DNA of 64,000 nt. It comes from the human T2T-CHM13v2.0 reference genome, Homo sapiens. How positions within the stretch are numbered: the first letter of the stretch is position 1; every line of letters begins with the position of its first letter. Position numbers and translations under genes: made by a program. Positions 12,350-18,540 of the stretch are shown piece after piece. The stretch lies in assembly GCF_009914755.1 (NCBI RefSeq), contig NC_060944.1. One strand, written 5' to 3'. The notes under the pieces were generated by a model. It did no database searches, had not been told where the DNA came from, and worked only from the letters and a program-made list of their open reading frames with translations.

Positions 12350-13680
12350 TTCTTCTCTACCTTTCCCCTCACATCTGTCCCTCCATCTCCAAATATAACT
12401 TGTATTTTAAAAAAAACAGGATATCCTTCCATGTTTTCCTTTGTATTCCTATAACCCCATAACCCTGCAAAGCTCATTTCTTTCTCTAGAACTCCTTTCT
12501 CTTTCTCTTTCTTTCTCACACACACACATACAAAGGTATAAAAGGAACTTTTTTTAAGGGAGGATGAGTCATTGTTTTGGAAAAATGGTATTGTATGACA
12601 TACATTTTTCTGCATCTTGATTTTCTCACTCAATATCTTGTAGGAATATCTTCAAGTCATCTTGTATAGTTCCAAATTAAAGTTAGTTCCTTACAACAGA
12701 TGTGCATTATGTCACGAAGTGAATATACTCACAAAGTGCTCAGCCATTCCCCTGGAAATGGGAATTTGTTTGCTTCTGGTTCTGCACCACTATGAACAAC
12801 GTTGCAGTAAGTATCTTTGTACATTTTGGTACAAATAGGATGGATTTTCAACGGTTCAAGAGCTGGGTGCATACACAGGGTATATGCACTTTTAACAATT
12901 TTACTAAATGCTGCCAGATTGCCTTCAGAAGAGATTGTATATTCCATGTTTCTACTAGACTGTAGGAAAGTATATCTTCCCCACAGCCCAGCTGCAATAG
13001 GATTTATGGCACTTTTAAATTTTTGCCAGTACGCTAGGCATAAAGCCATAACTCAGGGTTGAATATGAAATTTCTTGAATACTGAGGAATTCAAACATCT
13101 TTTATTTTCCTTTACTTTCTTTCTTTTTTCTTTTTTTTTTTCCTTTTTCTTCCTTCCTCTCTCCTTCCCTCCCATCTTTCCTTAATTTTCTTTTTTAAAT
13201 ATTGAGATTTGCTCTTCTGGGAATGGTCTCTTTAAAACCTTTGCCTCTTTCTGGTTAGTTTGTAAGAGCTCTCTGTATATAATAGAAATTAACCCTTTAT
13301 CATTTGCCTTACAATAATTTTGCAGATTTATAGTGTATATGTATATTTTATTTACATAATCTTGCAATGTACAAAATTTTAATATTCAAATATGCTTTTT
13401 TTTCTTTTATTGCTTCAGGATTTCCATTCTTGGTTTGTAAGATATCCCTAACCTTTAGATTATATCTGTAGTATCTTAGATTTTCTTGCAAAATTTTAAT
13501 TTAACTTCGTACAATGAAGTCTTCGTCTTGTTAGAATTTAACTTTGTAGAAGACATGAGACAGGGATGCATTTTAGTTTTAGCCTTAATTTTCTGGCAAA
13601 TAGGAAACCAGTTGTTCTGGCATCATTTGCTAAACAAGTCATCCTTTTCCTGTTCGAATGAATTGCTGTCTTAAGTTACC
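12350..13680 (-). mobile_element. Ancient L1 (L1ME/L1MC-like) fragment
   Basis: Diverged antisense L1 3' motifs (gtttgtaagagctctctgtatat, ccagttgttctggcatcatttgc). Confidence 0.7.
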
Positions 13681-13879
13681 TGGTGGTTTCTTGGGAGCTC
13701 AGCCAGCATCGTGAATGTTGGGTATAAGTTTTGTTTTCTCTCTAACCAGCTTGAGTGAACAGAGCATCCTGGGGTGCCTCTGTTTAATTTGTTTACTCAT
13801 TCATTTAACATTAGTTGTCATCTATTATGTTCCAGGCTGAAAAACATGCCCATTCTATGTCCTCAAGGCCTTTTTGGTT

Positions 13880-14660
13880 GAATACGAGATATAAGAAAAG
13901 TACAGGAGGTCTTTGTCAACCAAGAAAAATAGTCCCTTAAAGTCAATTTACTTAAGACAGGGACACCATATTTCAAAATAAAGAGTGGAAAGAGTGATTG
14001 AGTCTTTATCTTGAGTAGTGAAATGAAAAGTTTTAGAGAAAGTGTATTTTCTTATCTCAACAAAATTGATGCCATAATTGCAATGAAGGAGGCTTTGATT
14101 TGGGGGTATCATTTTCCTATAAATCCCCTGCACTTCACGTTTAACGTTCACAGTTCTATAAAAGAAATTCAGTTTTGCAAAATATTTCATAGCTCATTCA
14201 TTTCCACAAAGGACTCAATTCTTTTGTATGCAAATAATTCTCTTTTTAAGTACCCATCAGGTAGTGTGTCGTTAACTGGTCTAATTACCATGTCTTCATG
14301 TGCCCATGGCTTCATGAGCTGTTCTCACTAATTTCACTTTCATGAAGTTCACGAAATCCCATAGTCTTTGCAAGATTTGCATTTCCATTCGGCACTGGTT
14401 TTCATCTACTTGCATGATGTGCACAGATGTTTTCACGTCACCCTCAGGAAACCTGGCCTCTGAGGACCTGTTGGGGTTGGCACAGGGGAGAAAAGTGCAA
14501 AGTGCAGCTGAGACTGAAGAGGTGGATTTTGGAGATGAATGTTGTAATCGGCCAGTTCATTAGTGAACTCTTGGACTGTGATGGCTTTATCTCTCTATGC
14601 AACTTTGTAATAACTATGGGGACTCCATTCATAAAGATTTGGACCATGTGAACGCCTTTA
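13880..14660 (-). mobile_element. Possible very old non-L1 LINE (RTE/L4-like) reverse-transcriptase remnant
   Basis: Minus-strand translations FAYKRIESFVEMNEL*NIL and FSKTFHFTTQDKDSITLSTLYFEI resemble RT subdomains 3 and 4 in the right order. Confidence 0.4.
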
Positions 14661-14934
14661 TACAAAAAACTGTGATCTACAAAATAGGAGAGAAATATTG
14701 CTGGAACACTCTGGGAGTTCTGAGAGGGAAGTGGCTACGGCTGGGTGAGAGGCTCATGGGGAACAGGTGACGGGGTTTGCAGGAGTGGCAGGAGCCCGCT
14801 AAGTGGTTCCTGAAGGATGAGTTGGGTTGGCAGAGGGCATTCTAGCTAAAGGGAACAGCATGACCAGATGCAGAGAGGAAGACACGAAGAGCAACATACG
14901 GGTCTCCCTTCAAGGAAGGATTTGCTGCTGGGCT

Positions 14935-15112
14935 GTGGCAACATGTGGTCAGCAGACGGTCTCCAGCTGGCAGCTGGAACCACCTCTACCATAATCAATG
15001 TCTCCCCGTGCCTGGCCTGTCTCCCACTTCCTTTCACAAATGTTGATCCCTAAAAACAACTTCCACTGAAAACTCCGTCTCAGTTTCTGCTTCTGGAGAC
15101 CCCAGCCCGAGG
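14935..15112 (+). mobile_element. ERVL-type LTR fragment (LTR16-like)
   Basis: gttgatccctaaaaacaacttcc...ctccgtctcagtttctgcttctggagaccccagcc. Confidence 0.55.
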
Positions 15113-15339
15113 CAAGAGCAATGGGTTGGTGTGGGGGCTGCAGTGGGATCCACGTGGTTCAGCTCCAACAGCAGGAGTTCCCCACCTGGTTCCAGGTTTT
15201 CATCATCAAGTCCATGCATTCCTCAGATCGAGGGGTTCCACGGTTGACGAAAAGTATCATGTGTCATGTTTTGGGGATTTTGATGAGATTTGCCTGTGAC
15301 ATCAGGAGTAGCCTTTTATTTTTATTTTTAAATGCTTAT

Positions 15340-17135
15340 TTCTGTGCCCAGCCCAGACCTTTACTTGATGTCCAGGTTCATGCAATCAGCTGTGGTTGGG
15401 CTGTCTCCAACTCAAATAGTCGTGGGTTTCCCTGGCCGCCTTCTCCCTGCATCCCCCACCTCCATGATGGCCCTTCTTCCTGCCCAGGTGCTCAGGCCGG
15501 CATGGCCAGCTCCTCTCCTCCCCTGGCACCCACCCTCTGACCGCTCAGCACCTCTGTCCATCTGCTGTCCACATGGACCAATTCCCGAACTCCGGCCTCC
15601 TGTCTTCTCCCGCTGCAGTCCCTGCCCGGCTGCTCTCAGAGGATGATCACACCGCGGCCCTCCCTGGTCTCCCTGCTCAGCCTCCACCTCAGTCTATTCT
15701 TTTTTTTTTTTTTTTAACTTCTTAAATGCACAAATTTATTTTTTCTCAACAAACACACATCTTAATGCCTTTACAACTTTTATCTCCCCAAATATATCTT
15801 GCTTTTCTTTATACATGCTGTATACAGAGTTGTTTTCCTTATATTTAGTAGTTATTGCTTTTTTGTGCCCTTTTGGGTCCTGAATTTACACATCAGGCAT
15901 AGAGCTTGGGACAGGAAAGAGCTGTGAAGCAAATTCCTGGAAGATCAAACCCCTTCCAGCATGGCCAGGTAGCACAGCTGAGCCAGGGATGATGGGGCCA
16001 TATTGGGTTTGGCTCTGCCTTGCAGCTGGCAGTCCAAACACACCTCAGTCTATTCTATTCAACGATTCAGATCAGCCAGGCCAGCACCGAGCCCGGGTCT
16101 CCAGCCTCGCTCTGTGCAGCCACAGCCTTTCCCCGGTCGACAGGGCCCTGAGCCTCTGGCACCTTCCACCTGCCGGTCTCTTTCCTGCTTCTCTCCCATG
16201 TGGCCTTGCTCTGTTCAAGCCAGGAGCTCCCCACCTCGGGGTCTTACCCTCTGCCCCATCCGTCCTGGGATGCTCCTTTCTGGGATGTCCACCCACTGTG
16301 CCCTCACTGCCTGGGCACCTGCTGCTGAGACTGCAGAGGTGGATTTTGGCCCCCTTCTCCGGGGGCTCCTCTGATGTCCATGAGCAATCACAGCCCCCAC
16401 CGCCACCCCCTCCCTTCCCAGGGCTGTCTTTCTCCAGCGCACTTCCCACCATCTGACATAGTTTGCGTGTCGCACACCTTAGGTTGGATTCTGTGCAGCA
16501 GAACCTGAGCACCCATGTGTGGGAGCCCGTGCAACCCTCGACACAGCAGCAGGTGGGGCAGATGCAGCCTCAGATGCGCACCGCGGGGCCTTGGTGCCTT
16601 TGAGACTGGGCGTGACTCAGTTCATCTGGAGAAGTCCCCGGGAAGCGAGGGCAGGACCGCGGGGAGGGAGACGGGAAGGAAAAAACGCCCATCCTGATGG
16701 GATAAGGAGCAGGTGCCCACGGTGGGCCACTGGTGCTCAGCTGTGCTGGGGACCTCAGGGAGACGCTGAGGAGCGGCCTCAGAGGGGTGCACTGGAGAGG
16801 CGGGGAGGCCAGATCTGCTCCCCCGCAGCTTCCATTCGCCCAGGGCAGCTTTCCAGGACTCCACTCCCAGGTCACACAGGCTCCTGCAGCCCGAGGAGGC
16901 CCCGCAGGAGAGCAGGGGCAGCAAGAAGCCATGGTAGGGCAAAGACGGTGAGGCTTGCGGGACCCACGCGGCACCACCAGCTTCTGCTTTGTGCACTGTC
17001 TTGGGCTGTCACCTGCTTATCCTCTGGGTCATGAGCTCCCTGAAGACAGGGGTCTGTTTTGTTCTTTGCTGTGGCCAGAGACTACAACTGTGCCTGGAGC
17101 ACAGTCGGCCTTGCTTAAATATGCGCTGAGTGAGT
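15340..17135 (+). mobile_element. L2 fragment, interrupted by a retro-insertion and an LTR-like segment
   Basis: L2 motifs (cagcccagacc..., cagtctattct, gagctccctgaagacaggg) and a terminal gcctggagcacagt...aaatatgcgctgagtgag. Confidence 0.6.
15701..16040 (-). mobile_element. Orphan L1-mediated retro-insertion of an unidentified polyadenylated RNA
   Basis: Perfect 16-bp TSD CACCTCAGTCTATTCT (15685-15700, 16041-16056); T15 at 15701-15715; AATAAA on the minus strand at 15735-15740. Confidence 0.9.
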
Positions 17136-18540
17136 GACGCCTCCTGGGTCCGCCTCTGCAGGCTTCTGAGATGGATATTTGGCATCTTTAAAGAACCCAG
17201 ATCCCAGGCAAAGTCGCCCCTGATTTGGCTGATGCAGACTCCATCTCCTGCTGCTTCTGGGCTGACTCCGAAGCCTGTTGCTACTGTTTGCAGCCAAGTT
17301 AGTGTTCCCAACAGCGGCAGCTCCAGAGAGGGACTCAGACCGCTGATAAAAGCTCCCATTACACCGGGTGTTTTTCTGATGCTTTTGTACAGCTACCCTT
17401 TGATGCTGCAGTCATGAATCCTGACGGCAGAGTGACGATAATGGTCCCTATTACCCCTGGCATCTCACTTGATAGGATGACCAAGAGCCCACAAATCGCT
17501 CCTGAGTGTACCTCTAGCGACACATTTTTTTTTTTTTTTGAAACGGTTCCACCTGGTTTGTTCAGGAGAAGAAACAACAGATACGTGTATTTTCATTTCT
17601 TCCTTTAGTGGAGGTGTCACAATTGTTTTGGAAGTTGTCCAAGTGCCCAAGACCCCGGTCACAGACTCGACCATCTTCCCCATCCTTGAAAGCAAAGCAT
17701 CTATCTCCACATCTCCAGCACCAGCACAGGGCCTGGCAGGAGATAGGGCTCAAAGCAAAGCGTGTCTATGGGCCACCCGAGTGAGGTTAGATGGGAGCCC
17801 GGACCGCTGGCCTGCAGGAGGGCCCGAAGTCTGCGTGAGTCTCCTTCTTTCCCTGGGGGAGGTTCAGCCCCAACACCGTGGCCAGGATTGCTGCAGAAGG
17901 AGCCTCCGCCTGGCTCATCGCAGCCAGGCGATGATGTCTCGTGCTGAGTTTGAGTTGGGTGCTTGGTTAAGGTGCTGGCCATCAGAGTTCTCTGTTGTAA
18001 AGGATCCCTTTCCCTTTGAAATTGCCAAATAACATGTGTGGTGATATTTTGGGACCTTGTGGACACCCTGTTTGTCAAAATCTTCCCCCAGTGGTTTTGC
18101 ATCCACTGATGGTCTACGTACAATGATTACATTGAAGGTTGCAAATGGTCTTGTACATTTACCAGCAGGCCTTCCTCCAGGAAGAACTGTCCGTTCTCTC
18201 AGTCACTATTTTCAGTATGGTTATGGACTCAGGGATTCTTTTTTACTCCATGCATTCACAGCCACCACCGAAATTGTTTTATGTTCTTACGTTCCTACAT
18301 CTGGCCAGTGGGAGCCCTATTCTTCCAGCTTCTATTTTGTGGTTTGTTCCGATTGCCCCCTTTGAGGACTTTCTGATTTTCTGGTACAAGATGAAATCTT
18401 AACAACACGTCAATATCATGAGAAACAAACGAGGAGGGTGCACTGTTCTAGGAGATGGGTCATGACAACCAAAGACCATGCATGACCATCCATGGGATCC
18501 CAGAATGAGGAAAAAAAGCTCGAAATTTGGACTTATAAGC

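What the first reader, a model, noticed from the sequence alone, without database searches (positions are those of the whole stretch)
15685..16056. Young-looking orphan retroposed RNA: 340 bp, poly(A), AATAAA and perfect 16-bp TSDs
Seen: all TPRT hallmarks are present, namely an identical 16-bp TSD, a clean 15-nt tail, AATAAA ~20 nt upstream of the tail, and an AT|AGAA target similar to the L1 endonuclease site. It is inserted in an L2. The body is not recognisably Alu, L1 or SVA and has no clear ORF. Inference: the 5'-truncated 3' end of a cellular or ERV-derived transcript, or an orphan 3' transduction. The AT-rich half loosely resembles MER4-group ERV internal sequence. Many copies sharing the same 3' end would indicate a little-described retroposon family.
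Basis: partly seen in the sequence, partly recalled or inferred. Interest (0 to 1): 0.7.

Follow-up and report, generated by a model that had tools for sequence, protein, structure and literature searches.

The report
Orphan SVA 3' transduction from chr2
This 340-base insert is a copy of the DNA just downstream of an SVA jumping element on chromosome 2, likely carried here as read-through RNA that lost the SVA itself; the process is known, but this one source has left at least 17 traceable copies in the human genome.

Summary
In detail: 16-bp TSD, A15 tail, AATAAA 19 nt before the tail. An old paralog on chr20 shows the empty site.

The 325-bp body has 11 copies at 98-100% identity. One has no tail: chr2:85,491,712-85,492,036, the end of a ~955-bp flank downstream of a full-length SVA that has its own TSD. 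The other ten have tails and distinct TSDs; five still carry the SVA and five, this one included, are orphans. So this is an orphan SVA 3' transduction, not a new retroposon family or a processed gene. The body is a piece of an old ERV-like repeat in which the SVA sits.

Seven more SVAs carry the chr2 5' flank. The window copy keeps an older state of the flank, so its donor was an earlier chr2 allele or an early daughter. The mechanism is known. SVA orphans are rarely reported, and I found no report of this group, but the two likeliest papers were unreadable here.

The parts
15685..15700 (.). Target-site duplication, copy at the element's 3' (tail) end, 16 bp (last T ambiguous with the tail)
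   Evidence: single copy in the empty paralog L050
15701..15715 (-). Poly(A) tail, 15 nt, not present at the chr2 source
15716..16040 (-). Transduced body = C2:85,491,712-85,492,036, the last 325 bp of the ~955-bp flank downstream of the chr2 SVA; old ERV-like repeat sequence; 5'-truncated with 1-nt microhomology to the TSD
   Evidence: (2 differences in 319 columns to chr2, 0 in 319 to the chr19 copy)
15735..15740 (-). AATAAA, the likely poly(A) signal (C2:85,492,012-017), 19 nt upstream of the tail; absent at this position in 13 of 13 old relatives of the host repeat that aligned there
16041..16056 (.). Target-site duplication, copy at the element's 5' end, 16 bp

Best explanation
The insert is the last 325 bases of a ~955-base flank downstream of a full-length SVA on chromosome 2, likely copied here when read-through SVA RNA was reverse-transcribed by L1 proteins and cut short before reaching the SVA (an orphan 3' transduction). 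Shown: the SVA at C2:85,488,985-85,491,100 has its own TSD, so the flank lies outside it. Ten tailed copies of that flank with their own TSDs exist elsewhere, five with the SVA and five without. Inferred: Pol II skipped the SVA's own poly(A) signal and cleaved at a locus-specific AATAAA, probably strengthened by the T/GT-rich tail of an antisense Alu 10 nt downstream. Inferred: L1 ORF2p nicked TTCT/AT at chr20, primed on the tail and stopped after 325 nt. The immediate donor carried an older state of the flank than today's chr2 allele: an earlier chr2 allele, or an early daughter (chr3, chr5, chr19 or a lost one). The insert is most likely human-specific, a few million years old and neutral (inferred).
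For: 11 loci at 98-100% and exactly 11 exact matches of a 26-mer at the 3' end, control 0. Only chr2 lacks a tail. chr2 has hexamer repeats, a 40/49-mer GC-rich VNTR and a tail, with TSD copies at 85,488,985 and 85,491,082. Old relatives L019 and L024 run across the SVA site without it. Partnered copies: chr19 (1.85 kb, 5'-truncated), chr5, chr4, chr13, chr3. Orphans: chr20 325, chr10 ~352, chr14 ~167, chr8 ~683, chr1 ~942 bp. TSDs 13-18 bp, all different. All five partnered copies carry the chr2 3' TSD inside them, and chr4 also carries the chr2 5' TSD. AATAAA absent in 13 of 13 aligned old relatives; the 60 nt after the cleavage site are 57% T and 78% G+T. The window copy groups with chr19, chr5 and chr3 (FastTree support 0.93); at the one diagnostic column it covers, it has the state seen in 14 of 18 old relatives. 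Damert 2018 Additional file 2 lists SVA_D elements at matching positions with no chimp or gorilla orthologue entered.
Against: No RNA evidence for the read-through transcript was available. The immediate donor cannot be named: only one informative site lies in the 325 bp. Ape and population status of the chr20 insert was not tested. The match to Damert's hg19 rows is by chromosome and approximate position with recalled offsets, not a liftover, and blank ape columns may mean 'not determined'. The SVA subfamily was not assigned with a repeat library. The ERV identity of the host repeat is unconfirmed (Pfam: only GP41 at E=0.79, below cut-off, in 1 of 7 frames).
Confidence: 0.95

Rival explanations
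1. Same mechanism, but the RNA came from a daughter SVA (full-length chr5 or chr3 copy, the chr19 copy, or one now lost) and not from chr2 itself. This is a variant of the best explanation, not an alternative to it.
For: The window copy shares the older state with chr19, chr5 and chr3, not with today's chr2. chr5 and chr3 begin with hexamers and look full-length. The chr1 and chr14 orphans share a variant found in no SVA-bearing copy, so unseen donors existed.
Against: It lacks the private changes that chr5 (1 substitution) and chr3 (4-bp deletion) have in the same 325 bp. chr19 lacks the hexamer and Alu-like 5' end. An older chr2 allele explains the pattern equally well.
Confidence: 0.3
2. 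Processed copy of a non-SVA transcript (lncRNA, ERV-derived RNA or read-through from the upstream L1) that ends at the same poly(A) site on chr2.
For: Such a transcript would give an identical orphan. A young-looking, same-strand L1 3' part lies about 2-4 kb upstream of the SVA. The 5' break falls right after an AG.
Against: All five long copies begin inside the SVA or at its 5' TSD, and the 5' tags of seven further copies reach at most 123 nt upstream of it. None includes the L1 or any spliced exon. The five orphans break at five different positions, and the TSD abuts the body directly.
Confidence: 0.04
3. An independent short retroposon family whose 170-950-bp members copy themselves.
For: Five SVA-less copies share a 3' end, and two of them (chr1, chr14) share a private variant.
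Against: Their 5' ends are all different and nested within the chr2 flank; no internal promoter-like repeat structure; Rfam gave nothing above a gathering score; the SVA-bearing copies explain them.
Confidence: 0.01

Closest known systems
SVA-mediated 3' transduction groups (Xing et al. 2006, recalled, not readable here; Kirby et al. 2025 PMC12593883; Hoyt et al. bioRxiv 10.1101/2021.07.12.451456)
   Same: Read-through past the SVA poly(A) signal, flank copied inside new TSDs, several offspring per source. Kirby lists 18 3' groups among non-reference SVAs; Hoyt lists 55 top-confidence SVA 3' transductions in CHM13.
   Different: Here the SVA is entirely lost from the insert, and half (5 of 10) of the group's long 3'-transduced offspring are such orphans.
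Orphan 3' transductions (L1: Solyom 2012 as cited by Kirby, Feusier 2019 PMC6771411; SVA: one case in Kirby 2025; 48 polymorphic orphans in Schloissnig 2025 PMC12350158)
   Same: Transduced sequence alone with tail and TSD, from extreme 5' truncation.
   Different: Those are polymorphic or de novo events. These five are in the reference and trace to one SVA_D source. Kirby states orphans had 'been described for L1, but not for SVA'.
hs_SVA_D6e / D6d / D6a subfamilies (Damert 2018 PMC6139936, Additional file 2)
   Same: Rows at positions matching the chr2 source and the chr3, chr4, chr5 (D6e), chr13, chr6 (D6d) and chr19 (D6a) copies (approximate matching).
   Different: Sorted by SINE-R substitutions only. 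The passages and table rows I saw do not link them by shared flank or name chr2 as their source, and the orphans, having no SINE-R, cannot appear there.
SVA_F1 / CH10 (H10_1) source lineage
   Same: One prolific source giving both 5'- and 3'-tagged offspring, with an Alu inside the 3' transduction.
   Different: No MAST2 exon; canonical hexamer-Alu-like 5' end; SVA_D; smaller and apparently older.

Membership tests
Orphan 3' transduction (L1-machinery insertion) | Poly(A) tail, TSD and EN-type target | tested here: met
Orphan 3' transduction (L1-machinery insertion) | Body maps to untailed genomic DNA downstream of a same-strand full-length retrotransposon, outside that element's TSD | tested here: met
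   C2:85,491,712-85,492,036, about 610 bp beyond the SVA's 3' TSD
Orphan 3' transduction (L1-machinery insertion) | No retrotransposon body within the insert's TSDs; partnered siblings share the 3' end | tested here: met
   five partnered, five orphan
Orphan 3' transduction (L1-machinery insertion) | Empty pre-insertion site | tested here: met
   paralogous empty site L050; orthologues in apes not available
SVA (source element) | Hexamer repeat, Alu-like region, GC-rich VNTR, SINE-R, tail, TSD | tested here: met
   hexamer and VNTR by TRF; Alu-like and SINE-R parts recognised by eye; positional match to a listed SVA_D
hs_SVA_D6e | Damert's diagnostic SINE-R substitutions | tested here: inconclusive
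   Consensus file not compared. A 4-bp SINE-R deletion motif gives 40 loci that match 28 of her 29 D6e rows by chromosome and rough position, judged by eye
Processed pseudogene | Exonic source, intron loss or coding remnant | tested here: not met
   collinear genomic source, no exon joins, 0 of 5 frames with a Pfam hit; chr2 gene annotation not seen
MER4-group / class I ERV internal sequence (origin of the body) | Match to a named Dfam/Repbase consensus | not testable with these tools
   Old multicopy collinear repeat shown; env-like and integrase-like remnants downstream seen by eye, not confirmed by Pfam
L2 (host flank) | Match to L2 consensus | not testable with these tools
   resemblance recalled; the genome search with the flank found only itself and one paralog

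The most novel reading that the evidence does not exclude
The chr2 SVA is an undescribed long-lived master element that mutated in place for several million years and founded the ~40-copy D6e subfamily. Its 17 flank-tagged offspring (12 SVAs, 5 orphans) are dated snapshots. Two tagged SVAs (chr6, chr19) lack the 4-bp SINE-R deletion and ten have it, so the deletion would have arisen at chr2 itself. The orphans would be the largest set of SVA orphan transductions traced to one source. This would give a directly testable case, on a short time scale, in the Levy 2017 versus Damert 2018 dispute on SVA masters evolving in place.
Probability: 0.45. Interest if true: 0.5.

Novelty: new member of a known kind. 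Interest (0 to 1): 0.33.

Why it matters
For the insert itself, little: it is a short non-coding copy with no sign of function (the nearest RefSeq enhancer starts about 700 bp away). For mobile-element biology it shows that SVA output is undercounted. Five of the ten long 3'-transduced offspring of this source contain no SVA sequence, and because the body is old-repeat DNA an annotator would likely file them as ancient ERV fragments. The flank tags also allow one SVA_D source to be followed through successive alleles, which bears on whether SVA subfamilies arise by a source changing in place.

Tried and rejected
Rfam scan of 15000-17000: one match, E=0.17, far below gathering score; chance. 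Pfam on five frames over the body: none. Pfam on seven frames of the chr2 host repeat: only low-complexity hits and GP41 at E=0.79, so no support for naming the ERV family. A spliced-RNA origin, suggested by the AG before the 5' break and by the 430-870-bp gap between the two halves in old relatives, was rejected. The gap is already present at the chr2 source, and the TSD abuts the body. A mutated SVA poly(A) signal as the cause of read-through was rejected: 4 of 5 partnered copies keep an intact AATAAA at the SVA end; only today's chr2 allele (and one chr1 offspring) has it changed, and chr13 has lost it. Segmental duplication as the origin of the 11 copies was rejected because tails and TSDs differ at each site. 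Literature: eight completed full-text searches plus (0 hits) showed no paper on this group. Number-string searches in supplements of Kirby 2025, Schloissnig 2025 (file cut before Tables 19-20) and Chu 2023 found nothing, which is weak because coordinate format and build were guessed. Xing 2006, Damert 2009, Hancks and Kazazian 2010 and Hoyt 2022 (Science) were not held; Halabian 2022's supplement was unreadable; Hoyt's bioRxiv Table S13 was not seen. Any of these may list the partnered members.

Full report
Observation. The sequence shows a 16-bp direct repeat at 15685-15700 and 16041-16056 around a T15 run (15701-15715) and a 325-bp body (15716-16040). On the minus strand AATAAA ends 19 nt before the tail. 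The TSD occurs twice in the window at up to 2 mismatches, against 0.04 expected; 0 of 100 shuffles gave two. A search with the right flank found one paralog at C20:50.298 Mb. It aligns to both flanks at 79% and crosses the junction with a single TSD copy and no insert, so the empty site exists in the same genome. No ORF over the body hits Pfam (0 of 5), and Rfam gives nothing credible.

Source. The body has 11 matches at 98-100% and then a gap down to 82% or less (42 matches listed from 40 scored of 95 candidates). A 26-mer at the 3' end gives exactly 11 loci at up to 1 mismatch, control 0. Ten are followed by an A tail; only C2:85,491,712-85,492,036 continues into genomic sequence. Upstream on chr2 lies a full-length SVA: hexamer repeats, Alu-like region, 40/49-mer VNTR, SINE-R and tail (Alu-like and SINE-R parts recognised by eye). 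Its TSD copies are at 85,488,985 and 85,491,082. The ~955 bp from the 3' TSD to the cleavage site are therefore local flank: old repeat, an antisense Alu, then old repeat again. Nineteen older relatives were compared with the locus. They are collinear with pieces from 85,484,7xx to 85,500,6xx at 68-90%, and L019 and L024 run across the SVA site without it. The host repeat looks like a class I ERV internal region by eye (env-like and integrase-like remnants downstream), but Pfam did not confirm this and no repeat library was available.

Offspring. Five copies carry SVA plus flank inside one TSD: chr19 (1.85 kb, starts in the VNTR), chr5 (2.9 kb), chr4 (2.9 kb, beginning with the chr2 5' TSD), chr13 (3.2 kb), chr3 (2.5 kb). 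Five carry flank only: chr1 ~942, chr8 ~683, chr10 ~352, chr20 325, chr14 ~167 bp. TSDs are 13-18 bp and all different. Nine of ten end at the same base; chr13 ends a few bases earlier. A search for the chr2 TSD gave 15 sites. Seven are new SVAs (chr1 twice, chr2:105.7 Mb, chr6, chr7, chr11, chr20:55.6 Mb), which begin with 2-123 nt of the GA-rich repeat upstream of the chr2 SVA followed by its 5' TSD, inside their own 13-16-bp TSDs. That makes 17 tagged offspring.

Mechanism. Shown: location, boundaries, tags. From established knowledge: SVA is mobilised by L1 proteins, and 3' transduction follows skipping of a weak poly(A) signal (Hoyt bioRxiv passages); orphans arise by extreme 5' truncation (Kirby 2025 passages; Schloissnig 2025 passages). 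Inferred: the downstream site is a locus-specific one. AATAAA is missing at that position in 13 of 13 relatives that aligned there, and the 60 nt after the cleavage point are 57% T and 78% G+T because an antisense Alu tail starts about 10 nt downstream. This would explain the near-identical 3' ends. No RNA evidence was available.

Which donor. In the flank, four sites split chr19/chr5/chr3 from chr2/chr4/chr13/chr1 (chr1 covers three of them). Old relatives side with the first group at the three sites tested: 2 of 2, 4 of 6 with none showing the chr2 state, and 14 of 18. The window copy covers one of the four and has the older state. It differs from chr19 at 0 of 319 columns and from chr2 at 2 of 319, and groups with chr19/chr5/chr3 at support 0.93 (11 rows, homopolymer columns left out, resting on that one site for the window copy). 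So the donor was an earlier chr2 allele or an early daughter; this cannot be resolved from 325 bp. Pairwise differences of 7-14 in ~930 columns between early copies and chr2 suggest a few million years, up to about the human-chimpanzee split (rate recalled).

Comparison with what is known. Damert 2018 (PMC6139936; passages, section 9, Additional file 2 part 18 of 22) lists SVA_D rows at positions matching chr2, chr3, chr4, chr5 (D6e), chr13, chr6 (D6d) and chr19 (D6a), with the ape columns blank. The matching is approximate, with recalled hg19 offsets. A 4-bp SINE-R deletion motif occurs at 40 loci, which correspond by eye to 28 of her 29 D6e rows; the remaining row matches the chr20:55.6 Mb copy, which has the deletion plus one substitution. 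Of the 12 tagged SVA offspring, ten have the deletion and two (chr6, chr19) do not. The simplest reading is that the deletion arose at chr2 after the first offspring left, which would make chr2 the founder of D6e. Against this: chr19's SINE-R differs from chr2 at about ten further sites, which gene conversion or template switching could also explain; D6d has two members shared with chimpanzee while no ape orthologue is entered for chr2; and about 30 deletion-bearing SVAs were not examined. Levy 2017 (PMC5640379, passages) argues for masters evolving in place, Damert 2018 against, both on a longer time scale. Kirby 2025 (PMC12593883; abstract, passages, section 10) reports one SVA orphan and says orphans were described for L1 but not SVA. 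Schloissnig 2025 reports 48 polymorphic orphans without a split by element in the passages I saw (229 in the preprint). My nine completed searches showed no paper on this group. Xing 2006 and Damert 2009, the reference-genome catalogues most likely to list it, were not held, and Hoyt's and Schloissnig's source tables were not visible. Chu 2023, Halabian 2022, Feusier 2019 and PMC12016303 were seen as passages only.

Verdict. A real, young L1-machinery insertion, explained as an orphan SVA_D 3' transduction from a chr2 lineage (0.95). It is a new member of a known kind. Its interest lies in the source: five reference orphans and twelve tagged SVAs from one element, and a testable but unproven founder role for D6e.

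Noticed in passing
window 12602-17897 versus L050 (C20:50,296,500-50,299,800, minus strand): Old inverted intrachromosomal duplication about 680 kb away, five blocks at 68-84% identity, running to the end of the fetched stretch; includes the RefSeq enhancer 16767-17297. It supplied the empty site.
   Followed up: partly
C1:150,771,029 and C14:71,729,251 (L007, L011): Two orphans share a variant found in none of the SVA-bearing copies, pointing to a donor allele or daughter SVA absent from this assembly.
   Followed up: no
L047 (chr7:55.56 Mb) and L048 (chr11:17.00 Mb): These two SVAs share several private changes, a 4-bp insertion in the Alu-like region and the same very short 3' tag (part of the chr2 3' TSD, then a second tail): one is likely parent of the other or both come from one intermediate source.
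   Followed up: partly
L034 (chr19:45.49 Mb): SINE-R differs from the other chr2-tagged copies at about ten sites and lacks the 4-bp deletion, while its flank is chr2-derived: oldest offspring, or gene conversion/template switch.
   Followed up: partly
L031:8058-8066 (C2:85,491,06x) and L043 (chr1:7.13 Mb): Today's chr2 SVA has a changed poly(A) hexamer at its own end, and one 5'-tagged offspring on chr1 shares the change, suggesting the source was still active after it.
   Followed up: partly
L031:5860-5985 (upstream of the chr2 SVA): GA-rich microsatellite grown from an Alu tail; eight offspring start within it or at its edge, so transcription likely starts there.
   Followed up: partly
L031:2080-4185 and L033:1-830: A 5'-truncated, young-looking L1 upstream of the SVA, and a processed-pseudogene-like stretch downstream (RPSA-like from memory, not tested), both inside the old ERV-like repeat.
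   Followed up: no
L010 (chr10:74.54 Mb): Orphan copy inserted in an Alu tail, with 4-6 differences in 346 columns to its full-length siblings, more than the other orphans.
   Followed up: no
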